Source: a virus. Taken from it: a stretch of 24,963 nt of DNA. The position numbers and the translations under genes are program-made. The notes beneath the pieces are model-generated. The model searched no databases. It saw only the letters and a list, made by a program, of their open reading frames with translations, and was not told the DNA's origin. Shown here piece by piece: positions 3,545-18,527 of this stretch. The DNA lies in UHGV virus genome UHGV-0134179. The stretch is one strand, 5' to 3'. Position 1 is the stretch's first letter. Each line of letters starts with the position of its first letter.

Positions 3545-3712
3545 GTCATTAAATATCATTATGATAACAACGATGTCTTGAACTGGGAAGAGATACTTGA
3601 TCAACGCCAGCGGGAAATTGAGTCCTGCCTGAAGCGCGGACTTCCATTACCGAGCTGGGCGCAGGCGGATCAGTTCGCCAGCCAGACAATTACCGATCCG
3701 GAGGAAAAGTGA
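3545..3712 (+). pseudogene. 3' remnant of a portal-like gene (about 55 codons, no start codon)
   Basis: Open frame without an ATG ending in TGA at 3710-3712, overlapping the GTG start of the protease (GTGA) as the portal/protease junction does in lambda. Translation ...NDVLNWEEILDQRQREIESCLKRGLPLPSWAQADQFASQTITDPEEK. GC-rich, unlike the adjacent cassette. Portal identity is inferred from position. Confidence 0.4.
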
Positions 3713-4575
3713 ATCTACCTCATCTGGCCCAGCGCCTTTTTAATACACCGCTGGCGCTACACCCGAGCAAAGCTGAAGTCATCATGGCATCCGTTATGGA
3801 CCGGTTTGGTATCAGTAAAATCGAATCCTCTCTTGCCATGGATGATGACTGGTATGGATACGACGATAACCGGGGGCGGGAATCCCGTAGCGACCCGGGT
3901 TATGACAATGTGCTGGGCGTCGCTGTCATCCCGATATGTGGGACCCTGGTGCAGAAGCTGGGTAGCCTGCGCCCATACAGTGGTATGACAGGCTATGACG
4001 GCATTCGTCAGGCCTTCCTGACCGCGATGGAAGACCCCGATATTACGGGGATCTGCCTGGATATTGATTCGCCAGGCGGCGAGGTTGCCGGATGTTTCGA
4101 TCTGGTCGATGTCATTTATGGCGCCCGCGGGAAAAAGCCCATCCATGCCATCCTGACGGAAAGCGCCTATTCCGCCGCCTATGCGATTGCCAGTGCGGCG
4201 GACCGGATTTCTGTTCCCCGAACCGGTGGTGTGGGCTCAGTTGGCGTGATTACTATGCACCTTGACTGGACCCAGCGGATTAAAGATGACGGACTCAAAG
4301 TCACCATCATCACCTACGGTTCCCGTAAGGCTGAGGGGTCACCGCTGAGAGAGCTGTCAGATGAAGCGCTGGAGGCTATTCAGCAGGACATTAACACCAT
4401 GGGCGAATTGTTTGTGAATACCGTCGCCAGAAATCGGGGGATTAGCGCAAAGGTTATCAAAAGTACTCAGGCTGCCTGTTTTATGGCTGCTGATGGTGTG
4501 GAACTTGGACTGGCTGATGAGGTGTGTCCTCCTGATGCTGCGTTCAGAAACTTACTTGAAAAAACAGGAGCCTGA
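3709..4575 (+). CDS. prohead (head maturation) protease, S49 / lambda gpC-like
   Basis: GTG start. Motifs NLPHLA, PYSGMTGYDGI and DIDSPGGEVAG match recalled lambda gpC / SppA-type S49 peptidase signatures. Confidence 0.88.
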   Translation: MNLPHLAQRLFNTPLALHPSKAEVIMASVMDRFGISKIESSLAMDDDWYGYDDNRGRESRSDPGYDNVLGVAVIPICGTLVQKLGSLRPYSGMTGYDGIRQAFLTAMEDPDITGICLDIDSPGGEVAGCFDLVDVIYGARGKKPIHAILTESAYSAAYAIASAADRISVPRTGGVGSVGVITMHLDWTQRIKDDGLKVTIITYGSRKAEGSPLRELSDEALEAIQQDINTMGELFVNTVARNRGISAKVIKSTQAACFMAADGVELGLADEVCPPDAAFRNLLEKTGA

Positions 4576-4576
4576 A

Positions 4577-5167
4577 ATGGCGAAGAAAAAGACATTTAGT
4601 TTTGCTCATCTTATTGGCCGTGGCGCGGCTGCTTCCGAAGAGGAAGAAGACAAAAAGGCCAAAAAAGCGAAAGGCCGTCGCGCGGAAGAGGATGAGCGCG
4701 AAGATGATGCCGAGGACGATGAACGCGAAGATGACGCGGAAGACGACGAGCGTGATGATGACGCTGAAGATGACGGTGACGACCCGGATGCGGCGGAAGA
4801 CGATGAAGATTCCGAAGATGACGGCGACGATGACCGCAAAGAAAGCAAAGCGGTGAAAAATGCCCGCGCCGCCGAGCGTAAACGTTGCGCCCGTATCTTC
4901 GGCAGTAAGCACGCTGCGGCGAATCCGTCACTGGCCGCTTCACTCGCATTCAATACCGGGATGAGCTCTGCCGCCGCTATCGATGTTCTGGCATCCACGG
5001 CGCCAGCCTTGCAACCAAAGGCAACGCGCGGGCGCTCTCTCGATCAGCGCATGCAGGAAAGCCATGATGTCCGTCTGAATCCGGATGGCGGCAAGAAAGA
5101 GAACGGTAAATCGGCACTGGTAAACCAGATGACCGGCCTCTACAACTCCATTAAAGGAGAGAAATAA
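4577..5167 (+). CDS. acidic scaffold-like head protein (196 aa)
   Basis: Start at internal ATG 4577 with AGGAG RBS; the track ORF from 4493 overlaps the protease. Long acidic repeat EDDAEDDER x3. Position between protease and decoration/capsid genes. Confidence 0.6.
   Translation: MAKKKTFSFAHLIGRGAAASEEEEDKKAKKAKGRRAEEDEREDDAEDDEREDDAEDDERDDDAEDDGDDPDAAEDDEDSEDDGDDDRKESKAVKNARAAERKRCARIFGSKHAAANPSLAASLAFNTGMSSAAAIDVLASTAPALQPKATRGRSLDQRMQESHDVRLNPDGGKKENGKSALVNQMTGLYNSIKGEK
4688..4786 (+). repeat. roughly 27-bp tandem coding repeats (acidic EDDAEDDER units) inside the scaffold-like gene
   Basis: Three consecutive GA-rich units encoding EDEREDDAEDD / EREDDAEDD / ERDDDAEDD; creates long spurious antisense ORFs. 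Confidence 0.5.
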
Positions 5168-5574
5168 TGGATCAATTTGGTCAGAATGCCTTTGCACCTG
5201 GCATGAAGAGTTCAGTGTTTGTGCCGGATCAGTTAATTGCCGGTACACTGCAACTGGTCACTGACACCGGCACGATCACCGGCGGTGTGTATAAGCGTGG
5301 CACTGTGCTTGGCATGATCACCGCCAGTGGCAAATATACAGCCAGTGTGAAAACCGCAACGGATGGTAGCGAGACGCCAGCGGCCATTCTGGTTGATGAT
5401 GTTGACGCTTCCACCCATGGCGATCAGTCCGGCGGCCTGTACCTGATGGGCGAGTTCAACCAGAATCATATTATTTTTGACGATTCCTGGACTGCGCCGG
5501 AACTGAAAACAGCACTACGCCCGCTGGCCATTTTCCTGAAAGACAGCGCCCAGGCACCTTTAACCACCTCCTGA
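5167..5574 (+). CDS. head decoration protein (lambda gpD-like)
   Basis: 135 aa; AGGAGA RBS; TAATG overlap with the previous gene; immediately upstream of the major capsid gene. C-terminal GGLYLMGEFNQNHIIFDDSWTAPELKTALRP resembles the recalled lambda gpD C-terminus. Confidence 0.6.
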   Translation: MDQFGQNAFAPGMKSSVFVPDQLIAGTLQLVTDTGTITGGVYKRGTVLGMITASGKYTASVKTATDGSETPAAILVDDVDASTHGDQSGGLYLMGEFNQNHIIFDDSWTAPELKTALRPLAIFLKDSAQAPLTTS

Positions 5575-5672
5575 TTTATCCCTCATTTCTCCTGGCGAAT
5601 GCTTTAACGGGCAGGCGCTGACCTATTTAAAATTTATGCCAGCGTCTAGCTGGCATTATCAAGAGACTGAAT

Positions 5673-6722
5673 ATGGAAAATATTTATGATACCAGTGTGC
5701 TGGTGCAGGTCGTTCCTAACCTGAAAACCAGTCAGAACTGGCTGCTTGATCGCTTCTTCCCGAACGTCGTGACTTATGAGACCGAAGAAGTAGCGATTGA
5801 CGTGGATGTCGGCCTGCGTCGTATGGCGCCATTCGTCTCCCCGCTGGTGGAAGGTAAGCTGGTCGAGTCCCGTAAATACCAGACCAATACGTTCAAACCG
5901 GCGTACATCAAAGACAAGCGGGCGCCGGACCTGCGTAAACCTATCCGCCGCCAGATTGGTGAGCGTATTGGCGGTGAATATACCGCCGCAGAACGCGAAA
6001 TGTTGAACCTGCAGTTTGAGATGACTGATCAGATTGACATGATCAACCGTCGTCTTGAATGGATGGCGGCCAGCGCGCTGGTGTCCGGTACCGTCACGGT
6101 TTCCGGGGAAGGCTATGAAACCAAAGTGGTGGATTTTGGGCGCTCTCCGGATTTGACTATCACTCTGAGTGGTTCAGATAAGTGGCCGTTGACGGTTGCC
6201 GCTGGTGCCACTAATACCCAGCCCTCTGATGATATTGAAATCTGGCAGACGCTTTTCCTGAAAGAATCCGGTTCCGTCGCGACAGATCTGGTGTTCACAA
6301 GCAAGTCATGGCGTGCTTTCCGACTGGACACCACCATCAAAGATAACGCCATCACGTTCCCGGCGCTGAGCCCGTTTGGTAACCAGATTAATGCTGGTCC
6401 ACAGGCGATGAAGGGCGCTATTTATAAAGGTCGCTGGGGTAACTTTGACCTCTGGTTATATAACGACTGGTTTATTGACCCACTTGATAATGTCGAGAAG
6501 CCGATGATCCCCGACGGCGCCGTTATTATGTCTGGCGCTGATCTGATGGGGACCCGCGCTTTTGGCGTTATCCTGGACCCGGCATTTAACTACGGTCCCC
6601 TGGCCTATGCGCCAAAATCCTGGGTGAAAGAAGATCCGGCCCAGCGTCTTATCCTGATGCAATCCTCCCCGCTGGTTATTCCGAGCCGGGTAAACGCATC
6701 CCTCTGCGCGACGGTGGTCTGA
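5673..6722 (+). CDS. major capsid protein (lambda gpE-like)
   Basis: 349 aa; C-terminus PKSWVKEDPAQRLILMQSSPLVIP parallels recalled lambda gpE YPKNWVTTGDPAREFTMIQSAPLMLL; N-terminal RFFP...MAPFVSPLVEG parallels gpE LFFRE...MALYVSPIVSG. Confidence 0.88.
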   Translation: MENIYDTSVLVQVVPNLKTSQNWLLDRFFPNVVTYETEEVAIDVDVGLRRMAPFVSPLVEGKLVESRKYQTNTFKPAYIKDKRAPDLRKPIRRQIGERIGGEYTAAEREMLNLQFEMTDQIDMINRRLEWMAASALVSGTVTVSGEGYETKVVDFGRSPDLTITLSGSDKWPLTVAAGATNTQPSDDIEIWQTLFLKESGSVATDLVFTSKSWRAFRLDTTIKDNAITFPALSPFGNQINAGPQAMKGAIYKGRWGNFDLWLYNDWFIDPLDNVEKPMIPDGAVIMSGADLMGTRAFGVILDPAFNYGPLAYAPKSWVKEDPAQRLILMQSSPLVIPSRVNASLCATVV

Positions 6723-6723: not shown

Positions 6724-7101
6724 ATGGCAAAAATCTCTAAAACCGAGCAGGTCGATGATCTGAATGCGGAAGGCGCCACCGAAGACGCCCTGAATATCGA
6801 CGACCTGAATGCCGGCGGCAGCGTTCAGATGACGCATCAGTATGACGAAAAAGACGGCGATTCATCTGATGATCAGGATGACGATGAAGAAGATTTTCAG
6901 GAAGTAGCGGAACCTGAGTTTGTGGTCCTGAAAGGGAACTGCATTCGCCATGACGGTGAGGTTTACCGGGAAAACTCCCTTATTCCGGTCTCCGGTAAGG
7001 ATGCCGAGCGTCTGCTGGCCGCAGGTGTAATTGCCGATGTCCATGCTCTGCGACAGCGCGCGTTATCTGCTGCGCGTGGTGTGAAAATAACAACGGAGTG
7101 A
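6724..7101 (+). CDS. hypothetical head-associated protein (125 aa, acidic N-terminus)
   Basis: Tightly packed after the capsid gene (2-nt gap), matching the position of lambda FI; no sequence signature recognised. Confidence 0.5.
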   Translation: MAKISKTEQVDDLNAEGATEDALNIDDLNAGGSVQMTHQYDEKDGDSSDDQDDDEEDFQEVAEPEFVVLKGNCIRHDGEVYRENSLIPVSGKDAERLLAAGVIADVHALRQRALSAARGVKITTE

Positions 7102-7105
7102 GCAT

Positions 7106-7465
7106 ATGGGCGTGGACTGGGATTTACATCTTCTGAGTCCGCTCCATGGCGTGTTTGGCGATGAGCATGAGTACCGTCCCCGCAACGGTACTCCTTTTAC
7201 GATTAACGGTATTTTTGACCGTGGCTATGCGCAGGTTGCAGAAAATCTTGATGGTGATTCAGAAATTAACACCTCCAGCCCAATGCTTGGGGTGCGCGAT
7301 GCTGAATTTCGTCAGTTGGGTAAACCGCAACCTGCCGTATCTGACCGTGTGTTTATCAAAACGGTCGGAGGTCAGATCATCAATCAGTTATTTGTTGTGT
7401 CCAACGTCGAACCGGACAGCCATGGCGGCTCACGTCTTGTTCTCAATGTGGCGAAAACCCGATGA
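7106..7465 (+). CDS. head-tail joining protein (lambda FII-like / Mu gp36-like)
   Basis: 119 aa; GIFDRGYAQVAE...SSPMLGVRDAEFRQL...DRVFI...HGGSRLVL parallels recalled lambda FII GVFDDPENISYAGQGVRVEGSSPSLFVRTDEVRQL...GGSCHLWL. Confidence 0.6.
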   Translation: MGVDWDLHLLSPLHGVFGDEHEYRPRNGTPFTINGIFDRGYAQVAENLDGDSEINTSSPMLGVRDAEFRQLGKPQPAVSDRVFIKTVGGQIINQLFVVSNVEPDSHGGSRLVLNVAKTR

Positions 7466-8007
7466 ATGCTTCCGCAATACGACACATGGTCGTGGCCGCG
7501 CTGAAAGATAAAACGGCTGCCGCCGATCGTGTTTATTCCCCGCGTGACTGGGCAACTTCGCCGGACCTGTACCCAGCGTTGCTTGTTCAGACGCCATTTG
7601 ATCACAAAAAGGCGCAGGGGCGAAATGTCCCGGCCTTTACCTCTTTGACCACCGTTCGCATTACTGGCCGGGTTCAGGAGTACGACAGTGAAACCACTGA
7701 TGATGGCGCCATGCGCGCGGAGGTTGCGCTGGAAGAGCTCCGGGAACAGGTAGAAAGGGCGGTGATTAACAGCTACGAGTTAACCCGGAACATCCAGAAA
7801 TATGCGGAGGTCCGCTCGACGATTGATGTTGATGCGGATGGTGAAGCGCATATGGGCCAGCTGCTTATCGAAATTGATATTGAGCACTATCAGGGACCGG
7901 AAGACTTTTATCCGGTCGATACGGTGCCGCTGGCGGGGATCGACATCACCATCGACATGCCGGACGGTACGCCGCAGCCGGGCGTAAAAATAGACCTTCA
8001 GGAGTAA
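7462..8007 (+). CDS. putative neck / tail-completion protein (Mu gp37-like position)
   Basis: 181 aa; 4-nt overlap with the previous gene; position between connector and sheath genes. Confidence 0.5.
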   Translation: MNASAIRHMVVAALKDKTAAADRVYSPRDWATSPDLYPALLVQTPFDHKKAQGRNVPAFTSLTTVRITGRVQEYDSETTDDGAMRAEVALEELREQVERAVINSYELTRNIQKYAEVRSTIDVDADGEAHMGQLLIEIDIEHYQGPEDFYPVDTVPLAGIDITIDMPDGTPQPGVKIDLQE

Positions 8008-8009: not shown

Positions 8010-8195
8010 ATGTTTGTAAAACCGAAGGACGGGCTCAGCGTTCGCTGCCCTGTCAGGGGGGAGCCTTTGCCTAAAGATGGCGCGGAGGTACCTGATAATA
8101 CGTTCTGGCGTCGCCGCCTGAAGGATGGCGACGTCAGTCTGGTACCGGAAAAGGGCGTTAAAAACGCCGTAAAAAAAGAGGGCGTAATTAAATGA
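8010..8195 (+). CDS. small conserved protein upstream of tail sheath (DUF2635-like)
   Basis: 61 aa; GLSVRCPVRGEPLPKDGAEVPDNTFWRRRLKDGDVSLV matches my recollection of the small protein preceding sheath genes in Mu-like prophages; overlaps the sheath start by 4 nt. Confidence 0.5.
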   Translation: MFVKPKDGLSVRCPVRGEPLPKDGAEVPDNTFWRRRLKDGDVSLVPEKGVKNAVKKEGVIK

Positions 8196-9703
8196 CCGTT
8201 CCATTTTCGCGAGTTCCCGGCAATTTACGTGTGCCGCTTTTTTATGTGGAGTTTGATAACTCCATGGCCAACACGGCGACGGCTACACAACGAACGCTGT
8301 TGATTGGTCAGATGCTGGCATCAGGCTCTACACAGGAAAAAATCCCGGTAAAAGTCTCCTCTCCCAATGCGGTGGGTGAGCTCACCGGAAAAGGATCAAT
8401 GCTGCATGGCATGATGACGGCGTATCAAAAAAACGATACTGCTGCGGAGGTCTGGATCCTTCCGCTGGCTGATGATGCGGATTCGATGGCAGTGGCAACT
8501 GGCAGTATCAAGGTTGCCACACAGGCGGCAGAAACCGGCGTTATCTCTCTTTATATTGCTGGCGTTCGCGTACAACTGACCGTACTGGCGACTGACACTC
8601 CGGCTCAGATTGCCACTGCGCTGGTCGCGGCGATTACCCGCAAAACGGAACTGCCGGTGACAGCTGCTGTAAAAGCCGATGCAACGGATACCGTGACACT
8701 GACGGCCAAAAATGCCGGGTTGCTGGGCAATGGTATTGATATCAGGCTGAATTATCTCGGTGTTCAGGGTGGTGAGGTGACGCCCGCGGGCCTGACACTC
8801 ACCATCACGGGCATGACCGGCGGCGCCGGCGCGCCGGATTTTGTTGATGCCCTTGGCAACCTGCAGGATAAGACCTTTGATTTTGTCATCAACCCTTATT
8901 ATGACACCGCATCACTGGATGCCATCAGAGAATTTCTGAACGATGCAACCGGCCGCTGGGCATGGGATAAACAGCTTTATGGCCACGCATTCACCACTAC
9001 CAACGGCACTTACGCCGAGCTTGGCACCAAAGGGGAAACCCGTAATAACCAGCATGAGTCACTGCTTGGCGTGTACCGCTCACCATCACCGCGTTATATC
9101 TGGGCGGCGGCACTGACAGGGGCCGCTGCACCCAGCCTGCGTAATGACCCCGGACGCCCGCTACAAAGTCTGCCTGTTTATGGCGTGCTGGCACCGGACC
9201 TGGCGGATCGCTTTGAACTGACAGAGCGCAATAACCTGCTGTACAGCGGCATCTCCACTTACACCGTGGGTGATGACGGTACGGTGATGATTGAAAACCT
9301 GATTACCACCTACCAGAAAAACAGCTATGGCGACGAAGACGACAGTTACCTGCAGGTGGAAACGCTCTTCAGCCTGATGTTTGTCACACGATATCTCCGC
9401 ACTGCAGTGACCAGTAAATTTGGTCGCATGAAGCTGGCCGCGGATGGCACGCGTTTTGCGCCGGGGGCGGCGATTGTGACGCCAAACATCATCAGAGCCG
9501 ATCAGATCGCGGAATACCAGACGCTGGTCTTTAACGGCTACGCGCAGGACGCTGAGGCCTTCGCCAGAAACATTATCGTGGAGCAGAACAAAACAAACCC
9601 GAACCGCGTCGATGTGTTGTGGCCGGGAACGCTTATGAACCAGTTGCGCATCTTCGCGCTGCTTAACCAGTTCCGCCTGCAGGCTGAATCAACAGGAGCA
9701 TAA
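8192..9703 (+). CDS. contractile tail sheath protein (Mu gpL-like)
   Basis: 503 aa; position and size; followed by tube, chaperone and tape-measure genes in Mu order. Confidence 0.8.
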   Translation: MTVPFSRVPGNLRVPLFYVEFDNSMANTATATQRTLLIGQMLASGSTQEKIPVKVSSPNAVGELTGKGSMLHGMMTAYQKNDTAAEVWILPLADDADSMAVATGSIKVATQAAETGVISLYIAGVRVQLTVLATDTPAQIATALVAAITRKTELPVTAAVKADATDTVTLTAKNAGLLGNGIDIRLNYLGVQGGEVTPAGLTLTITGMTGGAGAPDFVDALGNLQDKTFDFVINPYYDTASLDAIREFLNDATGRWAWDKQLYGHAFTTTNGTYAELGTKGETRNNQHESLLGVYRSPSPRYIWAAALTGAAAPSLRNDPGRPLQSLPVYGVLAPDLADRFELTERNNLLYSGISTYTVGDDGTVMIENLITTYQKNSYGDEDDSYLQVETLFSLMFVTRYLRTAVTSKFGRMKLAADGTRFAPGAAIVTPNIIRADQIAEYQTLVFNGYAQDAEAFARNIIVEQNKTNPNRVDVLWPGTLMNQLRIFALLNQFRLQAESTGA

Positions 9704-9706: not shown

Positions 9707-10078
9707 ATGGCTGGAGATACCACTAATCGCCTGGCAGGTACCGCTTATGTCACCGTAAACGGGGTGACAGTTATGGTGGAGGGCTCATTCAAGTATCAGA
9801 CCTCCACTGTTAACCGTACCACGCTGACAGGCATGGACGGTGTGCATGGCTACAAAGAAAAGCCGGTTGCCCCGTATATTTCTGCCCGTCTTCGCGACAG
9901 CGGCGGTACCAACGTATTGGGTTTTAACAAACAGACGAACGTCAACGTGATCGCCGAACTGGCGAACGGAAAGACTATTATCGGTCGCGCGCTATGGACG
10001 GTGAACGTTCAGGAAGTGGAAAGCGAAGATGCAGTGTTTGATGTTCGCTGGGAAGGCCGGGACGTAACGGAGAACTAA
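9707..10078 (+). CDS. tail tube protein (Mu gpM-like)
   Basis: 123 aa; immediately after the sheath gene. Confidence 0.7.
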   Translation: MAGDTTNRLAGTAYVTVNGVTVMVEGSFKYQTSTVNRTTLTGMDGVHGYKEKPVAPYISARLRDSGGTNVLGFNKQTNVNVIAELANGKTIIGRALWTVNVQEVESEDAVFDVRWEGRDVTEN

Positions 10079-10079: not shown

Positions 10080-10358
10080 ATGGCAGAACTTGAACGCACC
10101 AAAGTCATTCCCCTCATCAAGCCTCTGGTCGATGAGGCGCAAAAAACACGCTATGAGCAACTGGAGCTGAAGGCGCCGACGCTCAGCCAGGCAGAGCAGT
10201 TCTACGAAAAGCAGGCATCGTCTACTTCACTGGCGGCGATGCGCCTGCTGATCTCGCTGGTCACGGATACGCGGGAAAGTGTGCTTCAGCCGATGGATTT
10301 TATCGACTTCCGAAAATGCGAGGAGTTTTTGCTCGGTTTTTTGACCTGGAAGCCCTGA
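10080..10358 (+). CDS. tail assembly chaperone (short form)
   Basis: 92 aa acidic protein between tube and tape-measure genes; overlapped at its 3' end by a -1 frame ORF running to the tape-measure start. Confidence 0.6.
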   Translation: MAELERTKVIPLIKPLVDEAQKTRYEQLELKAPTLSQAEQFYEKQASSTSLAAMRLLISLVTDTRESVLQPMDFIDFRKCEEFLLGFLTWKP

Positions 10359-10507
10359 CCGCCTGGCAGGAAACGGCGGCTGACGTCACATTTTATTTCC
10401 GCTGGACAGAAGACAGGGCATGGGGCATGACCTATGCCCGTCTGAAGTGGTGGGTATCGCAGGCCTCCCGTATCAATAAACTCAGGAATCCCGAACCCGA
10501 TGAGTAA
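10337..10507 (+). other. putative programmed -1 ribosomal frameshift site and extension giving a long-form chaperone (G/GT-like)
   Basis: Slippery heptamer T_TTT_TTG at 10337-10343 in the zero frame of the chaperone, 15 nt before its stop; the -1 frame stays open to 10507 and overlaps the tape-measure ATG. Confidence 0.45.
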
Positions 10508-12399: not shown

Positions 12400-13800
12400 A
12401 TGGCAATTATCCAGGATGCAATAACTTCTCTGATGGGGGGCGGTGGTAGTGAGGACTGGTTGAGCCAGCTACGTCCCGGCTCGTTCCGGGGCGTGCCTTT
12501 TGCTGTGGTGAATGAGGAAGGCAGTCATGGCCGGCGGCAGGCGGTTCATGAATATCCATACCGTGATACCGCCTGGATTGAGGATATGGGGCGCGGGACA
12601 CGGCGATTTATTATCCGTGGCTTTATCGTCCAGAACAGTCTGGTATACGGCGGTGGCGACGTTATTTCTCAGCGCCAGTCATTGATCAATGCGTGTGAAG
12701 CTAAGGGGAGCGGTACGCTCATTCACCCCACGCTGGGGGAGATGACCGTTTCAATACCTGAGAACGGTTTAAGGCTTTCCGGCTCCGCCGACAACGGCCG
12801 TTCGTTTGAATTTACCCTGATGGTCATTGAGTCGGGGTTAAAGGTCTTTGCCGTTACCGACAGTGCCGCCGCGGGGGATACCGTTGGCACCAACTTTCTG
12901 AAGCTGGTTAGTACGACGGTTGCCAGTACCCTCGCGAGAATTAAAAGCGAGATCCGTGGTGTGTCGCAGGGGATTCAGACCATCAGGGGAACCGTGACGT
13001 TCTGGACCAATATGGTGGATAACACCATCAGTGAGGTAACAAACGTCAGTAACGTGCTGGATTCTACTTTCGGGAATAATCGTTACGGGCGTTACAGCAA
13101 GGGGACCGTAGGCGGGAGCTCTTCGGGTATTAACGGCAATCGTGATGCCGATGACTCAGAAGACCATCAGGCATTGTCTGAACAGGTTACCGCCCGGGCG
13201 GTGATGGATCGCCAGGCTGTGCTCGCTACAACGGCTGCACTGAATGAATCTGTATTGGTCGAGGAATTTGTTCAGGGCGTTGCCGATGTGATTAATCGCA
13301 TTCTGTCCAGCGCCGGTAGCGTGAGTGACAAAATTGCCGCATTTGAAAAACTGGCGGCTTCAACCAGTACCGGATACCAGCGTTCCGAAAGCAGCCAGCA
13401 ACTGGCTGGCACCATGAACACGCTGATCGTAGTGCTATGTACCGGAGCCATGACGGATGCTGCTGCAGATTACAACCCAACCAGTCGTAATGAGGCCGAA
13501 GAAATCACTCAACGCGTAGCCGGGCAACTGGATACCGCGTTACTACTGGCGGGCGACCGTGGCGATGATGATCTTTATACGGCATTGATGGGCGTGAGAA
13601 CCGCTTTTCTGAATACCATGGCTCAGACTTCAGCCGGGCTGAGTGAGTTGATGCAAATAAATACCGCGGTGCCGGTTCCTGCCCTGGTACTGGCCAACCG
13701 CCTGTATCAGGATGCCTCGCGGGCAAATGAACTGATACAGGAGGCCAGCGTACCGCATCCGGCATTTATGCCGACGACGATGAAGGTGTTGAGACAATGA
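12400..13800 (+). CDS. DNA circularization protein N-like tail protein (Mu gpN-like)
   Basis: 466 aa; N-terminal WLSQLRPGSFRGVPF matches the recalled conserved N-terminus of Mu N-family proteins. Confidence 0.75.
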   Translation: MAIIQDAITSLMGGGGSEDWLSQLRPGSFRGVPFAVVNEEGSHGRRQAVHEYPYRDTAWIEDMGRGTRRFIIRGFIVQNSLVYGGGDVISQRQSLINACEAKGSGTLIHPTLGEMTVSIPENGLRLSGSADNGRSFEFTLMVIESGLKVFAVTDSAAAGDTVGTNFLKLVSTTVASTLARIKSEIRGVSQGIQTIRGTVTFWTNMVDNTISEVTNVSNVLDSTFGNNRYGRYSKGTVGGSSSGINGNRDADDSEDHQALSEQVTARAVMDRQAVLATTAALNESVLVEEFVQGVADVINRILSSAGSVSDKIAAFEKLAASTSTGYQRSESSQQLAGTMNTLIVVLCTGAMTDAAADYNPTSRNEAEEITQRVAGQLDTALLLAGDRGDDDLYTALMGVRTAFLNTMAQTSAGLSELMQINTAVPVPALVLANRLYQDASRANELIQEASVPHPAFMPTTMKVLRQ

Positions 13801-14882
13801 GTACGGATAATGATCAGGATATTGTCTCCCTGACAGTGGGCGGAAAAATCATTGAAGGATGGGACTCTGTGCGGGTGACCCGTGGCATTGAGCGTTTTCC
13901 CTCCGATTTTGACCTGGGACTGATGGATTATTTTCCGGGAAGTGACCAGAAGCAGCTGGTAAAGGAAGGGATGTCTTGTCAGGTAAAGCTTGGTAACGAC
14001 CTGGTCGTGACGGGGTATGTTGATGACTGGTCGCCTGCTATTTCCCGTTCGCGCCATGAAGTCAGAGCCTCAGGCCGCAGTAAGTGCGCAGATCTCGTGG
14101 ATTGCTCTGCTGAATGGCCAAATAACGTCATCAATAACAGTAATGCGCTTGATATAGCCTCCCGCCTCGCATCCCATTACAACATTGGAGTAAGTACAGA
14201 CGTTGATGATCTGGTGAAAGTCCCGCAATTTTCCCTGAACTGGGGGGAATCGCCACAGGAAATACTTGATCGTGTCTCCCGCTGGTCGGCATTGCTTTAT
14301 TACGATCAGCCTGACGGTAACTTATTTCTGACCCGGGTGGGGACAAAGCGCGCGGCCAGCGGTATCGCAGAAGGGGTAAATATCGAACAGGCTTATTACC
14401 GCCGTTCGATGGCTGACCGCTTTTCTGATTACGTCGGCGTATCGATGAGCATTTCGCCGATTGCAGGATTCTCGCCTGATACGGCTTATGATTCGGTGAC
14501 GCTGGCGACGGCCCGCGATCCTGAGGCGGCCAGTATGCGTTACCGAAAACGGATCATTATTGTTGAAAGTACACTGATGGCTTCACAACAGGCTCAGCGA
14601 GCGATTGACTGGGAGATGAACCGCCGATACGGCCGTTCCCGTCAGTTAACGGTGACGATTGATTCCTGGCGCGATAAATCCGGGAAATTATGGGAGCCGA
14701 ATACGCTTATCCCGGTCAACATCCCGAGTCTGCAGCTGCCTGACACCGAAATGCTTATCGCAGAGGTGACTTATATCAGAAACAGTGACGGCACCCATGC
14801 GCGCCTTTATCTGATGCCCCCGGCGGCTTTCGCTGTCCAGCCTTATGCTTTTTACCAGCAAATACCCGGACTAAACCAATGA
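13797..14882 (+). CDS. tail/baseplate protein (Mu gpP / P2 gpD-like)
   Basis: 361 aa; 4-nt overlap with N; position before the spike gene. Confidence 0.7.
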   Translation: MSTDNDQDIVSLTVGGKIIEGWDSVRVTRGIERFPSDFDLGLMDYFPGSDQKQLVKEGMSCQVKLGNDLVVTGYVDDWSPAISRSRHEVRASGRSKCADLVDCSAEWPNNVINNSNALDIASRLASHYNIGVSTDVDDLVKVPQFSLNWGESPQEILDRVSRWSALLYYDQPDGNLFLTRVGTKRAASGIAEGVNIEQAYYRRSMADRFSDYVGVSMSISPIAGFSPDTAYDSVTLATARDPEAASMRYRKRIIIVESTLMASQQAQRAIDWEMNRRYGRSRQLTVTIDSWRDKSGKLWEPNTLIPVNIPSLQLPDTEMLIAEVTYIRNSDGTHARLYLMPPAAFAVQPYAFYQQIPGLNQ

Positions 14883-15460
14883 ATCAAAATTTAAAGAAAT
14901 CGGCCACACGCATCGCCGGCATGCTGGGCATTGGCCGTATTACCACGCAGAGAGATAGCGGGGTTGTGCAGGAAATCCAGTACCAGACTCCGCTGGAAGT
15001 GGCCAGCGCCCCGCGGCTCTCTGATTTTGGTTTTTCATCGGGGTTACCGGCGGGATCGGATGTGCTTATTGCCTTTCTCGGTGGGGACCGCTCCAGTCCC
15101 GTCGTCATTGCCTCTAACCATCAAAGCTTCCGGTATACCGGGCTTAAGCCAGGCGAAACCGTGGTCTATAACCAGCAGGGGATGAATATTCATCTGACCG
15201 AGGAGGGGATTTTCATTGATGCGAAAGGCAAAGATGTAGAGATCAATAATGCCAGAAACATCACCGCGACGGCAACGGAACAGGTAAAGCTGGTTACCCC
15301 CAAACTCCTGGTGACGGGTGACATCATCGATAACTGCGAGACGAACAATTCAACGCTCAAAGCGCTGCGGGATGCTCACAACAATCATGACCATGACGTT
15401 AAAGAAGTTCAGTCCGGCGATAGCAAGATCACAAGCGAAAAAACAGAGAGTCAGGTATGA
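14879..15460 (+). CDS. baseplate spike / assembly protein V-like
   Basis: 193 aa; VLIAFLGGDRSSPVVIAS resembles the gpV OB-fold motif; His-rich C-terminal HNNHDHD. Confidence 0.7.
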   Translation: MNQNLKKSATRIAGMLGIGRITTQRDSGVVQEIQYQTPLEVASAPRLSDFGFSSGLPAGSDVLIAFLGGDRSSPVVIASNHQSFRYTGLKPGETVVYNQQGMNIHLTEEGIFIDAKGKDVEINNARNITATATEQVKLVTPKLLVTGDIIDNCETNNSTLKALRDAHNNHDHDVKEVQSGDSKITSEKTESQV

Positions 15461-15906
15461 GTGATATTTCCTCATTCTGGGATGTGGATGCCATTCATGC
15501 TGACTGGCAAACCGGTAACGGCGTACTGACATCTGAGAATGATATGCACACGGCCATTATTATCAGTTTGTTTACTGACGGACTGGCGCGCGCTGATGAT
15601 GATTATGAAGGAACTGACCGCCGCGGCTGGTGGGGGGATCTGGACAACGACCGGAATATTGGCTCAAGGCTGTGGCTACTGCGGCGTGAAAAACTGACGC
15701 GCGAAGTGGCGATGAGAGCTGAAGATTACGCCGAAGAGGCTCTGGCCTGGATGAAGTCGGATGGTATTGCAGCAGCGATAGAGGCTCAGTCAGAGATTGT
15801 TTTCCCGAACAGGCTGAACCTCATCATCCGGTATTTGCCGCCGACGGGGGACTGGCAGGAGTTCAAATTCTTCTGGCTATGGGAGCAACTGAATAATGCC
15901 ATTTAA
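15457..15906 (+). CDS. baseplate protein (GPW / gp25-like, Mu gp46-like)
   Basis: 149 aa; size and position between spike and J-like genes. Confidence 0.65.
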   Translation: MSDISSFWDVDAIHADWQTGNGVLTSENDMHTAIIISLFTDGLARADDDYEGTDRRGWWGDLDNDRNIGSRLWLLRREKLTREVAMRAEDYAEEALAWMKSDGIAAAIEAQSEIVFPNRLNLIIRYLPPTGDWQEFKFFWLWEQLNNAI

Positions 15907-17044
15907 GCGGAAAACACTGAGCGAGCTCCGGCAGGAGAATCGCCAGTTTATGCAGGCAGAGCTTGAAAGTGTTGGCGCGTTGTTACGGTTTGGCAACCTT
16001 AAGGTGCTCGCTGATATGGATGCGGGCATGGCCCATCTGCACTACGCCTACCTGGATTATATTGCCCGTCAGAGCACGCCTTTCACCTCTACCGATGAGT
16101 GGCTTGCCGGATGGATGGCGCTAAAGCAGATTTACCGAAAAGCCGCAACGGCAGCACGCTCTCCGGCGGCGAAAGTTACCGGAACACCGGGAAAAACACT
16201 GTCAAAAGGGGCTGTGTTAAACCGTGATGATGGTTACCAGTACATAACCGATGACGCCATAACGATAAATACCACTGGCAGTGCGACGGTCGCCGTAACA
16301 GCGGTTTTGCCGGATATCACAGACGATGTGACAGGAGGAGGCGCTTCCGGAAATGCCGATGCTGGCACCATTCTTACACTGGATGCTAATGCCCCCGGCA
16401 TAGACAGCTCGGTCACGCTGATTGAGCCTGCCACCGGCGGCGCTAACATTGAAAGTGAAGAGGATTTCCGATTACGTGGTCTGCTGGCGTATCAGAATCC
16501 CCCGCAGGGAGGGAGTGACACTGATTATAAAAGCTGGGCTTTATCCGTGTCGGGGATCACCAGGGCATGGATACGGCGCCGGGGGATGGGGCCGGGTACC
16601 GTGGTGATTTACATCATGTGCGACGGCGATGATAAAACCAATCATGGATTCCCTGTAGGAACTGACGGTGTCTCTCAACTGGAAGAGTGGGGGGCTGTAA
16701 AAGCCACCGGGGATCAGGGGAGAGTTGCCGATTATATGTATCCGCTTGCGCCGGTTACCTCCCTTAACTATGTCTGCTCTCCCATCGAACGCGTTATCGA
16801 TTTTGAAATAAGCGGGATATCTGATGCCGACAGCGCAACGACTGCGGCCATTGCTGATGCGATTGACGGGGTATTGTTTGAATCTGCTAACCCGCTCGGC
16901 ACAGGGAAAATTTACCTTTCAGATCTCAACCGCGCAATAGGGGATGTTGCCGGTACTTCAGGTTATATCCTTGTGTCGCCTTCTGCGAATATTGAGCCGG
17001 GAGTTGGGGAGCTGGCTGTTCGTGGCGAGGTGAACTACACATGA
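15896..17044 (+). CDS. baseplate J-like protein (Mu gp47-like)
   Basis: 382 aa; position in the Mu-type order. Confidence 0.75.
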   Translation: MPFKRKTLSELRQENRQFMQAELESVGALLRFGNLKVLADMDAGMAHLHYAYLDYIARQSTPFTSTDEWLAGWMALKQIYRKAATAARSPAAKVTGTPGKTLSKGAVLNRDDGYQYITDDAITINTTGSATVAVTAVLPDITDDVTGGGASGNADAGTILTLDANAPGIDSSVTLIEPATGGANIESEEDFRLRGLLAYQNPPQGGSDTDYKSWALSVSGITRAWIRRRGMGPGTVVIYIMCDGDDKTNHGFPVGTDGVSQLEEWGAVKATGDQGRVADYMYPLAPVTSLNYVCSPIERVIDFEISGISDADSATTAAIADAIDGVLFESANPLGTGKIYLSDLNRAIGDVAGTSGYILVSPSANIEPGVGELAVRGEVNYT

Positions 17045-17715
17045 GCCTTTTCTCAACAGACGATTATCAGAAGGCACTGCAGGCGCTTATCCCCACCGGC
17101 CGAGCGTGGACACGGGATCCAAAAGCCGTTCAGGCCGCTGTACTGCGGGCCATTGCGGCCAGTTTCCAGCGTAGTGATAACGACGCACTTGCATTGCTGC
17201 GCGGTGCCTTTCCAAAAACTGCGACGATTATGCTCACCGAGTGGGAAAAAACACTCGGCTTGCCTGATGATTGCTCGATTGGCGAAGTGGATACGATTGC
17301 GAAGCGTCAGTCTGCCATTGTCTCGAAGCTCATCAGTACCGGTGGGCAGTCAAAGAGCTATTTCATCAGTATTGCCGCAGCAATGGGTTATACGATTTCG
17401 ATTAAGGAATACCGGCAGGCGCGTGCTGGCTTATCGGTATGTGGTGACGGGCTAAATGGGGATGACTGGCCATTTGTCTGGCTGGTAGAGGCGGAAGACA
17501 CAACGATAACTTATGCCCGTGCAGGTCTGAGTTATTGTGGTGATCCATTACGCTCCTGGGGTAATCGTCAGCTTGAGTGCCGGATAAATGCCCTTGCCCC
17601 CTCATACACCCTGGTCAAATTTGGCTATATATATTTCGGTTTTAACGATGAAGGGGTTTACGAAGTCACGCCTGAGTTTGCCAGAATATTTGATATCGCT
17701 TCCGGTTACGTTTAA
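17041..17715 (+). CDS. tail protein (Mu gp48 / YmfQ-like)
   Basis: 224 aa; 4-nt overlap with the J-like gene; immediately precedes the fibre gene. Confidence 0.6.
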   Translation: MSLFSTDDYQKALQALIPTGRAWTRDPKAVQAAVLRAIAASFQRSDNDALALLRGAFPKTATIMLTEWEKTLGLPDDCSIGEVDTIAKRQSAIVSKLISTGGQSKSYFISIAAAMGYTISIKEYRQARAGLSVCGDGLNGDDWPFVWLVEAEDTTITYARAGLSYCGDPLRSWGNRQLECRINALAPSYTLVKFGYIYFGFNDEGVYEVTPEFARIFDIASGYV

Positions 17716-17741
17716 TTCAGACATTTAAAAAGAAGGTTTAT

Positions 17742-18527
17742 ATGAGAAAAGTTGGCAGTACAACTGACACCGCTGATGTTAATGGTGAATACACTAATGG
17801 TAATGTCGCTAATGGTATTTCACCGACAATAATTAATGCTGAGATGATGAATACCTTTCAGCGTGAGCTGGTAAACGTTGTTGAAGGCGCGGGGCTTGAG
17901 CTTGATCCTGATGATGATTCACAGGTTCATAAAGCGATTGGTGGCGGTCGCCTGCTTAATATTGTCACATTTACGAAGTCAGGGACTTACACTCCAACTA
18001 AAGGGACGAAAAGAGTGCGGGTGAAAGTTTGGGGAGCGGGGGGAGGTGGCCAGAATGCTCCAGTTAATGTGGGCGCATCTGGTGGTTGTGCTGGTGGGTT
18101 TTCGGAAGGGTTATTTAATATTTCTGATAACGAAACTATATCTGTGACGATAGGTACTGGTGGCAGTGCTGTTGCTGCTGGTGTCGCGTCTAAAGGCGGG
18201 AACGGTGGTGATACAAGGTTCGGGAGTTTAATCTCAGCTACTGGAGGGAGTGGTGGCGGGTCTACAGTTCCTGCTGGAGGTATCGGAAGTGGCGGGAACA
18301 TTTTAAATATTACTGGCGGAATATCTCAAGGTGGTCTGTATTATGGTTCTGATGCTTTTATTGGCGGGGCTGGAGGATCTGCATTTTCATCAACGGGTGG
18401 CAATGGCCACTTCGGTAGTTCTGGCGATGATGGCGGTTTCCCCGGCTCAGGTGGTGCCGGGGGGAATGGTAACTATTCATCAGGAAAAGGAGCGAATGGT
18501 TTAGTTTACCTTGAAGAGTTTTCCTGA
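17742..18527 (+). CDS. tail fibre protein with glycine-rich C-terminal domain
   Basis: 261 aa; N-terminal ADVNGEYTNGNVANGISPTIINAEMMNTFQRELVNVVEG resembles conserved fibre N-termini; the C-terminal ~170 aa are dominated by GG/GGxGG repeats. Confidence 0.65.
   Translation: MRKVGSTTDTADVNGEYTNGNVANGISPTIINAEMMNTFQRELVNVVEGAGLELDPDDDSQVHKAIGGGRLLNIVTFTKSGTYTPTKGTKRVRVKVWGAGGGGQNAPVNVGASGGCAGGFSEGLFNISDNETISVTIGTGGSAVAAGVASKGGNGGDTRFGSLISATGGSGGGSTVPAGGIGSGGNILNITGGISQGGLYYGSDAFIGGAGGSAFSSTGGNGHFGSSGDDGGFPGSGGAGGNGNYSSGKGANGLVYLEEFS

What the first reader, a model, noticed from the sequence alone, without database searches (positions are those of the whole stretch)
3709..18527. Mosaic virion module: lambda-type head genes joined to a complete Mu-type contractile tail and baseplate gene set
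The protease, decoration, capsid and FII-like genes follow lambda order and show lambda-like motifs. From the FII-like gene onward the order matches the Mu/FluMu tail block gp36-gp49 exactly (neck proteins, sheath, tube, frameshifted chaperone, tape measure, N, P, V, W, J, gp48, fibre). The junction lies around 7100-7500.
Basis: partly seen in the sequence, partly recalled or inferred. Interest (0 to 1): 0.4.

Follow-up and report, generated by a model that had tools for sequence, protein, structure and literature searches.

The report
Known lambda-head, Mu-tail prophage with embedded satellite

Summary
Observation confirmed. Window 3709-18527 encodes, in order: an S49 protease, a scaffold, gpD, gpE, an FI-position protein and FII. 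These are followed by a tail terminator, DUF2635, sheath, tube, a frameshifted chaperone, a tape measure, and Mu N, P, gp45-gp48 and a fibre.

Every gene is colinear with two isolated, viable myoviruses: Citrobacter phiNP (53-91% aa) and Serratia vB_SspM_BZS1 (39-92% aa). The same capsid-to-sheath block is in 51 of 5426 complete E. coli genomes, and an Acetobacter phage shares the layout. GC content and identity show no break at the junction. The last lambda-family gene is FII (ends 7465). The first Mu-specific gene is DUF2635 (starts 8010).

The module is not complete in the window. TerS, TerL, gpW and all but the last 127 nt of the portal gene are missing. Window 1-3581 is the right end of a roughly 17-kb PICI satellite integrated in the portal gene (10-bp core at 3582-3591). 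Relatives show the other junction, with TerS-TerL-gpW-portal to its left. Helper-embedded PICIs were described in 2023, but this site and integrase lineage are not in that catalogue.

The parts
3..203 (+). 3' end of a tail-fibre assembly (Caudo_TAP) gene belonging to the satellite's late zone. The contig breaks here.
   Evidence: The independent contig L009 and relative L207 have a complete 141-aa Caudo_TAP gene at this position.
234..309 (+). The satellite's cos region, with cosN GCATTGCGCGCC at 266-277.
   Evidence: Exact match to the experimentally determined 12-nt 5' overhang of BZS1 (PMC7556043). The same 12-mer lies upstream of TerS in all intact relatives, in phiNP and in the stand-alone satellites L007/L010. 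The 77-bp block is shared with L001.
312..493 (+). Five copies of the 9-mer TTCACACTT (one inverted) between cosN and the TerS-like gene. Candidate cosB.
   Evidence: Binding by the 194-aa protein is inferred, not shown.
514..1098 (+). Satellite TerS-like protein (194 aa). It has a Nu1-type N-terminal DNA-binding domain and an unrelated C-terminal part.
   Evidence: phrog_57 (terminase small subunit) matches residues 1-61 only. 35% identity over 49 aa to the helper TerS, E 2e-5. The helper TerS and lambda Nu1 match phrog_57 over their full length.
1129..1156 (+). Intrinsic terminator after the TerS-like gene.
   Evidence: 7-bp stem with 6 GC pairs, followed by a T run.
1201..1392 (+). Small conserved satellite gene (63 aa, phrog_7271).
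   Evidence: It follows the TerS-like gene in every satellite relative.
1689..2819 (-). Satellite cargo gene orf376, 34% GC, function unknown.
   Evidence: No hit in Pfam, NCBIfam, PADLOC or PHROGs. 57 homologue clusters scattered over Klebsiella, Vibrio, Chromobacterium, Proteus and Paraburkholderia.
2847..3392 (-). Satellite cargo gene. The likely product is 154 aa starting at the internal Met, with a predicted signal peptide.
   Evidence: phrog_26680, E 1e-58, over residues 28-181. Called as 154 aa in relatives. Sequence.
3582..3591 (+). attR core ACTGGGAAGA of the embedded satellite.
   Evidence: Alignment of attB, attL and attR in relatives L206/L207/L211 and in the window.
3582..3708 (+). 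Last 127 nt of the helper's lambda-family portal gene.
   Evidence: 97.5% identical to the 3' end of intact portal genes.
3709..4575 (+). Prohead protease, S49 family (lambda C cognate).
   Evidence: Pfam, E 5e-28. 37% identity to lambda C.
4577..5167 (+). Acidic scaffold protein (Nu3 position).
   Evidence: phrog_6382, plus weak matches to the C-terminal parts of protease-scaffold fusions. The role is assigned by position.
5167..5574 (+). Head decoration protein (lambda D family).
   Evidence: Pfam HDPD, E 1e-22.
5673..6722 (+). Major capsid protein (lambda E family).
   Evidence: Pfam Phage_cap_E, E 2e-61. 31% identity to lambda E.
6724..7101 (+). 125-aa acidic protein in the FI position, function unassigned.
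   Evidence: No Packaging_FI match. Only a sub-threshold DUF7210 hit, phrog_24496, and no match among solved structures.
7106..7465 (+). Head closure / head-tail joining protein (lambda FII family).
   Evidence: Pfam Phage_attach, E 3.5e-13. phrog_82 'head closure Hc1'.
7462..8007 (+). Tail terminator protein.
8010..8195 (+). DUF2635 protein (Mu gp38 cognate).
   Evidence: Pfam, E 1e-20. 45% identity to Mu gp38.
8192..9703 (+). Tail sheath (Mu L cognate).
   Evidence: Pfam sheath domains. 39% identity to Mu L over the full length.
9707..10078 (+). Tail tube (Mu M family).
   Evidence: Pfam Tail_tube, E 1e-35. Mu M hits the same family.
10080..10507 (+). Tail assembly chaperone. The short form ends at 10358. 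A -1 frameshift at T_TTT_TTG (10337-10343) extends it to 10507.
   Evidence: Pfam Phage_TAC_7. Sequence. The heptamer is conserved at the same place in L001 and phiNP, as TTTTTTA in BZS1 and as TTTTTTC in SfV.
10500..12353 (+). Tape measure protein.
   Evidence: phrog_2276, E 5e-142.
12400..13800 (+). Mu N (gp43) cognate, with the DNA circularisation N-terminal domain.
   Evidence: Pfam, E 3e-31.
13797..14882 (+). Baseplate hub (Mu P/gp44 cognate).
   Evidence: Three GpP/gp44 Pfam domains. 30% identity to Mu.
14879..15460 (+). Central spike (Mu gp45 cognate).
   Evidence: Pfam Phage_Mu_Gp45.
15457..15906 (+). Baseplate wedge (Mu gp46 cognate).
   Evidence: Pfam GP46, E 3e-32.
15896..17044 (+). 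Baseplate J-like protein (Mu gp47 cognate).
   Evidence: Pfam Baseplate_J, E 6e-53.
17041..17715 (+). Baseplate wedge (Mu gp48 cognate).
   Evidence: Pfam Phage_Mu_Gp48, E 5.5e-31.
17742..18527 (+). Short tail fibre.
   Evidence: The N-terminal 66 aa match tail-fibre N-termini in PHROGs. The C-terminal part matches Gly_rich_2.
18506..19884 (-). Inserted non-structural genes (moron) on the opposite strand: an acyltransferase (O-antigen acetylase type) and a 95-aa regulator-like gene.
   Evidence: Pfam Acyl_transf_3. Same position and orientation as BZS1 p24/p25. Discussed as a serotype-conversion gene in PMC7556043.
19887..23395 (+). Two further receptor-binding genes: a 696-aa tailspike with a beta-helix, and a 472-aa protein with a spike-fibre domain.
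   Evidence: Pfam Beta_helix. NCBIfam GTA_spike_fiber and PHROG tail families. Only the N-terminal 22% is shared with relatives that carry other C-terminal domains.

Best explanation
Window 3709-18527 is the late (virion) operon of a temperate, lambdoid, cos-packaging myovirus of the phiNP / vB_SspM_BZS1 type.

How the virion is built (inferred from the families and from the relatives):
- A lambda-family portal, an S49 protease and a separate scaffold assemble a gpE shell. gpD then decorates the shell.
- DNA is cut at a cos site with a 12-nt 5' overhang and packaged by a Nu1/gpA-type terminase.
- gpW and an FII-family protein close the head.
- FII docks on a hexameric tail terminator that caps a Mu-type contractile tail. 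That tail consists of DUF2635, sheath, tube, a frameshifted chaperone, a tape measure, N, a P hub, a gp45 spike, gp46-48 wedges and a short fibre, plus two tailspikes further downstream.

The head-tail combination is ancestral to a lineage found across Enterobacterales and also in an Acetobacter phage.

In this contig the head block begins at the protease because a PICI-type satellite of about 17 kb is integrated in the portal gene, at the 10-bp core ACTGGGAAGA, 127 nt before the stop codon. Window 1-3581 is the satellite's right end. It carries its own copy of the helper's cosN, a Nu1-like DNA-binding protein with its own repeat array, a small conserved gene and two cargo genes. TerS, TerL, gpW and the 5' 1.5 kb of the portal gene are expected to the left of the satellite's integrase, off the contig.

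By analogy with published helper-embedded PICIs, an intact portal can be made only after the satellite excises.

Shown: gene families, order, colinearity, the cos motif, attR, and attL with the upstream genes in relatives.
Inferred: assembly roles, the timing of excision, and the function of the satellite's TerS-like protein.
For: Families and order.

Same architecture in isolated phages. BZS1 has cos ends and myovirus morphology (PMC7556043). phiNP has a 70-nm head and a 115-nm contractile tail and lysogenises E. coli K-12 (PMC3072379).

Distribution:
- The exact S49 protein is on record in 116 blocks of the collection. All 10 places shown carry TerS-GpA TerL-gpW-Phage_portal_2 upstream, plus lambdoid Q and lysis genes.
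- 51 of 5426 complete E. coli genomes carry capsid-to-sheath as one contiguous block at 78-99.6% nt identity.
- 321 IMG/VR contigs encode this portal.
- Acetobacter phage phiAP1 shares head, FII, terminator and tail genes in the same order at 26-59% aa.

Terminator fold. Frameshift site. cosN.

Satellite:
- The same junction is in an independent contig that is 99.2% identical over 4.4 kb.
- The junction is identical in five further contigs whose phage side and satellite side are differently combined.
- Relatives L206, L207 and L211 show TerS-TerL-gpW-portal(561-562 aa)|int-AlpA-AntA-...-primase-SSB-...-TerS'-orf62-orf380-orf154|S49, with attL and attR sharing the core with attB. L213 shows the same left junction, but its contig ends before the right junction.
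- Stand-alone satellites of the same build end right after the cargo genes.
- The HE-PICI concept and its portal-gene sites are published (PMC10111431).
Against: - The attL side is not in the window, and no longer contig with the exact window sequence was found. The embedded configuration here rests on attR plus relatives that are 81-89% identical in the satellite part.
- The terminator model has only moderate confidence (pLDDT 63.7).
- The FI-position and scaffold proteins have no family-level support.
- No expression or particle data exist for this element itself.
Confidence: 0.88

Rival explanations
1. A recent, novel recombinant: a lambda-like head module was newly joined to a Mu-like tail module at about 7100-7500.
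For: By sequence family, the head genes match lambda and the tail genes match Mu.
Against: - The same join, gene for gene, is in phiNP, BZS1, 51 complete E. coli genomes and an Acetobacter phage.
- GC content is flat across the join.
- Identity to phiNP and BZS1 is continuous across it: FII 68/57%, terminator 78/67%, DUF2635 88/57%.
- Identity to lambda and Mu themselves is only 28-45%.
Confidence: 0.02
2. A defective prophage remnant in which TerS-TerL-gpW-portal were deleted and replaced by foreign DNA, so that the remaining virion genes are decaying.
For: - The four genes are absent from the window, and only a 127-nt portal stub remains.
- Decayed copies of this prophage do exist: L020 lacks the genes from the FI-position gene to N, and L033 lacks S49 to gp48.
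Against: - The breakpoint is exactly the attR of an integrated satellite, whose attL and the 'missing' genes are present in relatives.
- The identical junction recurs with shuffled partners.
- All 19 downstream ORFs keep the lengths seen in intact prophages.
Confidence: 0.05
3. An elongated PICI, or a PICI-prophage fusion, that has captured the helper's late genes from the protease to the tail and sits at a chromosomal site. It would then depend on another helper for terminase and portal.
For: - Capture by PICIs of up to 17 consecutive helper late genes is reported, and capture at the integration site has been suggested (PMC10111431).
- The left end of this contig is unseen.
Against: - In every relative where the left end is visible (L206, L207, L211, L213), the satellite's integrase abuts the portal 5' part, with gpW, TerL and TerS upstream.
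- The right end of the composite is a normal prophage end.
Confidence: 0.05

Closest known systems
Serratia phage vB_SspM_BZS1 (MT843275; Bujak et al. 2020, PMC7556043)
   Same: - Identical gene order from the protease to gp48 and the fibre. The full order in BZS1 starts at cos-TerS-TerL-gpW-portal.
- Also shared: the opposite-strand acyltransferase with a small regulator gene, and the two downstream tail and virion proteins.
- Capsid 92% aa, gp48 83%, other proteins 39-74%.
- Identical 12-nt cosN.
   Different: - The tape measure is only 39% identical.
- The fibre and tailspike C-terminal domains differ.
- The acyltransferase is not homologous.
- BZS1 has no embedded satellite.
- Different host genus.
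Citrobacter phage phiNP (OR565852; Petty et al. 2011, PMC3072379; Magaziner et al. 2019, PMC6456863)
   Same: - Same order of head, neck, tail and baseplate genes at 53-91% aa.
- Same cosN.
- Same TTTTTTG frameshift site.
- Infects and lysogenises E. coli K-12.
   Different: - Different fibre and fibre-assembly genes, and no tailspike pair.
- Different cargo genes.
- Integrates at ssrA.
- No embedded satellite.
Phage lambda head module (Nu1-A-W-B-C/Nu3-D-E-FI-FII)
   Same: Same families and order for C, D, E and FII in the window, and for Nu1, A, W and B in intact relatives. Cohesive-end packaging.
   Different: - Only 31-37% identity where BLAST detects any similarity.
- The protease and scaffold are separate genes.
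- No Packaging_FI family match.
- The tail is contractile, not lambda's Z-U-V-G-T-H-M-L-K-I-J set.
Phage Mu tail module (gp36-gp49), and SfV/ST64B-type phages that carry it
   Same: gp38, L, M, gp41, N, P and gp45-gp48 have cognates in the same Pfam families and the same order. Identity is 28-45% to Mu and 22-48% to SfV.
   Different: - No Mu gp36 or gp37 family match.
- Different tape-measure family, and a different, shorter fibre.
- No G-segment.
- Mu is a transposable phage with its own head type. SfV has an HK97-type head (Phage_connect_1, Phage_HCP).
- Intact relatives of the window have lambdoid early and lysis genes.
Helper-embedded PICIs (Tommasini, Mageeney & Williams 2023, PMC10111431)
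   Same: - A 16.7-17.1-kb element with int-AlpA-(Bro/AntA zone)-primase-SSB-late zone.
- Co-oriented with the helper's late genes and integrated inside one of them.
- Short identity block (10 bp).
- Carries a copy of the helper's cos.
- Relatives sit at hpt and fis.
   Different: - The site is after portal residue about 505, outside the Phage_portal_2 profile. The published portal sites are at profile positions 38, 227 and 241, plus a putative site at 21.
- The junction strings are absent from the paper's attL and attR files.
- The integrase is only 24-27% identical to capE:80-type, hpt-type and fis-type integrases.
- It encodes a Nu1-like protein, whereas 11capE and EcCICFT073 lack terS.
- The helper has a Mu-type contractile tail.

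Membership tests
phiNP / BZS1-type temperate myoviruses | Colinear late operon from the protease to gp48 and the fibre, with significant protein identity throughout. | tested here: met
   All 19 genes hit both genomes in order, at 53-91% and 39-92% aa. Annotations.
phiNP / BZS1-type temperate myoviruses | cos site with the 12-nt overhang GCATTGCGCGCC. | tested here: met
   The motif is present in the window, but in the satellite's copy (266-277). It lies upstream of TerS in all intact relatives. Cleavage itself is not testable here.
phiNP / BZS1-type temperate myoviruses | Lambda-type TerS, TerL (GpA), gpW and portal upstream of the protease. | tested here: inconclusive
   Absent from the window except for the portal's last 127 nt. 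Present in all intact relatives, and upstream of the satellite in L206, L207, L211 and L213.
Lambda-type head module | S49 protease, gpD decoration protein, gpE capsid protein and FII, in that order. | tested here: met
   Pfam matches above the gathering scores. Order as in lambda.
Lambda-type head module | FI packaging protein between E and FII. | tested here: not met
   Lambda FI hits Packaging_FI at E 5e-59. The window's 125-aa protein does not.
Mu-type contractile tail module | gp38, L, M, gp41, N, P, gp45, gp46, gp47 and gp48 families in Mu order. | tested here: met
   The window proteins and the Mu proteins hit the same Pfam families. tblastn positions run monotonically along Mu.
Mu-type contractile tail module | Mu neck proteins gp36 (PF07030) and gp37 (PF08873). 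| tested here: not met
Transposable Mu-like phages | Mu-type head genes and a transposition-based life style. | tested here: not met
   The head genes are lambda-type. Intact relatives carry lambdoid Q, RusA, NinG and lysis genes and a cos site.
SfV / ST64B-type phages | HK97-type head and connector genes joined to a Mu-type tail. | tested here: not met
   The SfV head genes give no hit to the window's head genes. The SfV connectors belong to Phage_connect_1 and Phage_HCP. The tail part is shared at 22-48%.
Helper-embedded PICI (HE-PICI) | int, alpA and primase co-oriented, 10-20 kb, no full virion gene set. | tested here: inconclusive
   These genes lie off the contig. They are present in relatives L206, L207 and L211, whose right part is 81-89% identical to window 1-3581.
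Helper-embedded PICI (HE-PICI) | Integrated within a helper late gene, with attL and attR sharing a short identity block with attB. | tested here: met
   attR is in the window at 3582-3591. attL, attR and attB share the core ACTGGGAAGA in relatives.
Helper-embedded PICI (HE-PICI) | Integrase belongs to the 11capE-related clade, and the site is one of the 14 published sites. | tested here: not met
   24-27% identity to capE:80-type, hpt-type and fis-type integrases. The site is outside the Phage_portal_2 profile. The junction strings are not in the paper's supplements (one file was truncated when stored). No phylogeny was run.

The most novel reading that the evidence does not exclude
The satellite whose right end occupies window 1-3591 may represent a second, independent origin of helper embedding. 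Its tyrosine integrase lies outside the published HE-PICI clade and targets the C-terminal end of the portal gene of lambda-head/Mu-tail myoviruses. It carries its own Nu1-like DNA-binding protein and repeat array next to a copy of the helper's cosN, which suggests a way of steering the helper's terminase to satellite DNA. It also carries an uncharacterised two-gene cargo (orf376 plus an exported 154-aa protein).
Probability: 0.5. Interest if true: 0.5.

Novelty: new member of a known kind. Interest (0 to 1): 0.3.

Why it matters
The head-tail mosaic adds nothing new. It is one more copy of a phage type that has been isolated, imaged and sequenced, and that is present in about 1% of complete E. 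coli genomes.

The useful result is a correction. An apparently truncated head module next to low-GC foreign genes is here the signature of a satellite embedded in the helper's portal gene, not of prophage decay. This matters for prophage-completeness calls in metagenomes.

If the satellite's integrase lineage and portal C-terminal site are indeed undescribed, helper embedding would extend beyond one integrase clade and to helpers with contractile tails. The satellite's Nu1-like protein with its own cosB-like repeats would then be a testable packaging-redirection mechanism.

Tried and rejected
1. Nucleotide search of 3709-18527 against the phage collection found only one partial 75% hit, to phiNP. 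Protein searches were needed to see the relatives.

2. I first read the loss of TerL, gpW and the portal as a deletion or replacement in a defective prophage (notes). I rejected this.

3. I first took the 194-aa protein for the phage's own TerS. It shares only the N-terminal 50-60 aa with the helper TerS.

4. I looked in the window for the att repeat of the hpt-type satellite. It is absent.

5. I searched for the exact junction in JGI metagenome contigs, GTDB representative genomes and IMG/VR. There were no matches.

6. I searched IMG/VR with the portal protein to find truncated portals. Only full-length matches ranked among the 80 loci returned.

7. Sequence searches of solved structures with the three neck proteins found nothing significant. 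The terminator had to be identified by fold.

8. PADLOC, NCBIfam and Pfam gave nothing for orf376 or orf181. orf376 has no tblastn hit in the phage collection.

9. Two primase representatives (P0181, P0179) led only to hpt- and fis-site satellites and to capsid-forming PICIs, not to the portal site. The exact primase sequence, obtained through the cluster look-up, gave the answer.

10. The promoter scan of 1-3800 found no more sites than chance.

Full report
**What the window is.** It is a whole metagenome contig (ENA ERZ1744285, NODE_418, 24,963 bp). From 3582 to about 20,300 it is 98.5-98.8% identical to prophages in many E. coli chromosomes. GC content is 0.52-0.55 from 4 to 17 kb and drops to 0.34-0.43 at 1-3 kb and 18-20 kb.

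**Check of the observation.**

Pfam assigns the head genes as follows:
- 3709-4575: Peptidase_S49.
- 5167-5574: lambda head decoration protein D.
- 5673-6722: Phage_cap_E.
- 7106-7465: Phage_attach, the lambda FII family.

Pfam assigns the tail genes as follows:
- 8010-8195: DUF2635.
- 8192-9703: three sheath domains.
- 9707-10078: Tail_tube.
- 10080-10358: Phage_TAC_7.
- 12400-13800: DNA_circ_N.
- 13797-14882: the GpP/gp44 domains.
- 14879-15460: Phage_Mu_Gp45.
- 15457-15906: GP46.
- 15896-17044: Baseplate_J.
- 17041-17715: Phage_Mu_Gp48.
- 17742-18527: a glycine-rich fibre-like protein.

Mu's own gp38-gp48 hit the same families in the same order. tblastn gives 37% and 31% identity to lambda C and E. 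It gives 28-45% to Mu gp38, L, N, P and gp45-48, at positions that increase monotonically along Mu.

The chaperone frameshift is real in sequence. T_TTT_TTG lies at 10337-10343 in the zero frame, and the -1 frame is open to 10507, overlapping the tape-measure start. The heptamer sits at the same place in phiNP. It appears as TTTTTTA in BZS1 and as TTTTTTC in SfV. The observation therefore stands.

**The neck.**

Mu gp36 and gp37 hit their own Pfam families (PF07030, PF08873). The window proteins do not. Gene 7106-7465 is a lambda FII-family head-closure protein (also phrog_82).

It is therefore the tail terminator. The last lambda-specific family ends at 7465 and the first Mu-specific family begins at 8010. 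The 125-aa protein in the FI position has no Packaging_FI match.

**Is the mosaic novel? No.**

The two best phage hits for the capsid protein and for the sheath are the same two phages:
- Serratia vB_SspM_BZS1: 91.7% and 65.9%.
- Citrobacter phiNP: 88.8% and 74.8%.

Their annotated genomes have the same order: cos-TerS-TerL-gpW-portal-protease-scaffold-D-E-x-FII-terminator-DUF2635-sheath-tube-chaperone-tape measure-N-P-gp45-gp48-fibre. In BZS1 the shared order continues into the opposite-strand acyltransferase and the downstream tail proteins. Every window gene from the protease to the fibre hits both genomes in order.

Both phages are characterised. BZS1 is a myovirus with a 12-nt 5' cohesive end, and its authors noted related prophages in Serratia, E. 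coli and Pectobacterium (PMC7556043). phiNP makes particles with a 70-nm head and a 115-nm contractile tail and lysogenises E. coli K-12 (PMC3072379; PMC6456863).

The lineage is widespread:
- The exact protease sequence is on record in 116 blocks of the collection. In all ten places shown, TerS, a GpA-type TerL, gpW and a lambda-family portal precede it, with lambdoid Q and lysis genes further upstream.
- 51 of 5426 complete E. coli genomes carry the capsid-to-sheath segment as one piece at 78-99.6% identity.
- 321 IMG/VR contigs encode the portal.
- Acetobacter phage phiAP1 has the same head, FII, terminator and tail genes in the same order at 26-59% identity.
- A Pararheinheimera phage joins the same head type to a P2-type tail.

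The join is old and is inherited as a unit. Neither GC content nor identity to relatives changes across it.

**Why the head block starts at the protease.**

Homology to intact prophages begins at 3582, inside the portal gene, 127 nt before its stop. To the left the window contains, in order:
- The 3' end of a fibre-assembly gene.
- A 77-bp block shared with the region upstream of the phage TerS (234-309).
- A 194-aa protein.
- A strong intrinsic terminator.
- A 63-aa gene.
- Two low-GC genes on the minus strand (orf376, and orf181/154).

The 77-bp block contains GCATTGCGCGCC at 266-277. This is the experimentally determined BZS1 overhang. It is also present upstream of TerS in every intact relative and in phiNP. 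Between it and the 194-aa gene lie five TTCACACTT repeats.

The 194-aa protein shares only its N-terminal 50-60 residues with the helper's Nu1-family TerS.

Window 234-1388 is about 93-94% identical to part of a 17,020-bp element in E. coli VG1046-3E9. That element is bounded by 22-nt direct repeats between gcd and hpt. Its gene content is int, AlpA-type regulator, AntA, Icd-like, primase, SSB..., cos, TerS-like, orf63, cargo, and it has no capsid, portal, TerL or tail genes. A second such element lies between yicC and dinD in a strain that also carries a prophage of this family. These are gram-negative PICI satellites. Close primase relatives are also found in capsid-forming PICIs at the hpt and fis sites.

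**The junction is real and recurrent.**

An independent Logan contig has the same junction and is 99.2% identical over 4.4 kb. Homologues of orf376 (80-87% aa) sit in the same arrangement in five further contigs, including Klebsiella chromosomes.

All of them share the junction ...ATGATAAYAACSATGTCTTGA|ACYGGGAAGAG.... The phage-side and satellite-side variants are combined differently among them.

Through the exact primase sequence I reached four relatives in which the other end is visible. The order there is:

TerS - TerL - gpW - portal ORF of 561-562 aa | int (417 aa) - AlpA - AntA - ... - primase - SSB - ... - fibre - fibre-assembly gene - TerS-like - orf62 - orf380 - orf154 | S49 protease.

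The attachment sites read as follows:
- attL: GAGGACTGGGAAGA|AACTC.
- attR: TTGAACYGGGAAGAGATAC.
- Empty site (attB): GAGGACTGGGAAGAGATAC.
- This gives a 10-bp core and an element of 16.7-17.1 kb.

Integration cuts the portal after about residue 505 of 544 and replaces the last 39 residues with 56 unrelated ones.

The window is therefore the right end of a satellite embedded in its helper's portal gene, followed by the helper's remaining late genes. The contig ends in repeats: a fibre-assembly gene on the left, and on the right an IS element adjacent to the last gene.

**Comparison with the literature on embedded satellites.**

Helper-embedded PICIs were described by Tommasini, Mageeney and Williams (PMC10111431). 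They reported 491 of them at 14 sites in cognates of lambda late genes. Their portal sites are at Phage_portal_2 profile positions 38, 227 and 241, plus a putative site at 21. They also reported PICI subfamilies at hpt and fis. In their model the interrupted late gene cannot be expressed intact until the satellite excises.

I saw their major site independently. In IMG/VR loci L084 and L102 a related satellite splits a gpE-family capsid gene at ...YVKPKH|.

The site in this window differs in several respects:
- It lies outside the Phage_portal_2 profile, which covers residues 38-417.
- Its junction strings are absent from the paper's attL and attR files. One spreadsheet was truncated when stored.
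- Its integrase is only 24-27% identical to the capE:80-type, hpt-type and fis-type integrases.
- No later paper in the searchable library describes it.

This part is a likely new variant of a known kind. However, I did not run an integrase phylogeny, and the window itself shows only attR.

**Beyond the right end of the finding.**

After the fibre come an opposite-strand acyltransferase and a small regulator-like gene. They occupy the same position as in BZS1, where O-antigen modification was proposed.

Next come a 696-aa beta-helix tailspike and a 472-aa protein with a spike-fibre domain. Relatives share only the N-terminal fifth of the tailspike and carry other C-terminal domains. These genes belong to the virion module, so it ends at about 23,395, not at 18,527. 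Two low-GC minus-strand genes follow (23445-24658).

**Verdict.**

The interpretation as an unusual mosaic is not. This is an ordinary member of the phiNP/BZS1-type temperate myoviruses.

Noticed in passing
window 1-3591: Right end of a roughly 17-kb PICI satellite embedded in the helper's portal gene (attR core ACTGGGAAGA at 3582-3591). The site and the integrase lineage, seen in relatives L206, L207 and L211, are not among the published HE-PICI sites.
   Followed up: yes
window 266-277 and 312-493: The satellite carries an exact copy of the helper's 12-nt cosN, followed by five TTCACACTT repeats and a protein that has only the Nu1-like DNA-binding domain. This looks like a private cosB and recognition protein for redirecting packaging.
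   Followed up: partly
window 1689-3392 (minus strand): Two-gene, 34%-GC cargo in the satellite: orf376 and an exported 154-aa protein. orf376 has no known domain and 57 homologue clusters scattered across Gamma- and Betaproteobacteria. Candidate defence or exclusion genes.
   Followed up: partly
window 18506-19884 (minus strand): Acyltransferase (O-antigen acetylase type) plus a 95-aa regulator-like gene, inserted between the fibre and tailspike genes. BZS1 has the same arrangement. A likely serotype-conversion insert.
   Followed up: partly
window 19887-23395: Tailspike whose N-terminal fifth is conserved, while relatives carry different C-terminal domains (annotated as SGNH hydrolase, CotH kinase family or TolB family). 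This indicates modular swapping of host-range domains. The second protein has a GTA-type spike-fibre domain.
   Followed up: partly
window 23445-24658 (minus strand): Two low-GC genes at the prophage end (113 and 246 aa). The 246-aa protein has a weak, sub-threshold PADLOC hit to a CARF+HEPN (Csx1/Csm6) model, E 0.0025. The same pair occurs next to unrelated siphovirus tail genes in L012, so it is mobile cargo.
   Followed up: no
L084 and L102 (IMG/VR), about 5.0-17.7 kb: A related PICI splits a gpE-family major capsid gene at ...YVKPKH| and itself encodes a full-length gpE-like protein. That protein's C-terminal part is 47-50% identical to the helper's capsid protein. This matches the published E:Phage_cap_E:80 site.
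   Followed up: partly
L020 13016-13597 and L033 8229-9110: Decayed copies of the same prophage. One has a deletion fusing the FI-position gene to N. The other has a deletion from the protease to gp48, with the embedded satellite still in place.
   Followed up: no
L032/L034 16.8-18.9 kb, and L033/L035/L116 13-17 kb: Satellites of this family carry variable cargo between the replication and late zones: a GAPS4-type pair (PDDEXK_GAPS4 + GAPS4b_N), or a Ser/Thr kinase + PP2C phosphatase pair.
   Followed up: no
E. coli 2022CK-00450 (L030, and hit H133): A stand-alone satellite with the same cos / TerS-like module (between yicC and dinD) and a phiNP/BZS1-type prophage co-occur in one genome. This fits a helper-satellite pair acting in trans.
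   Followed up: no
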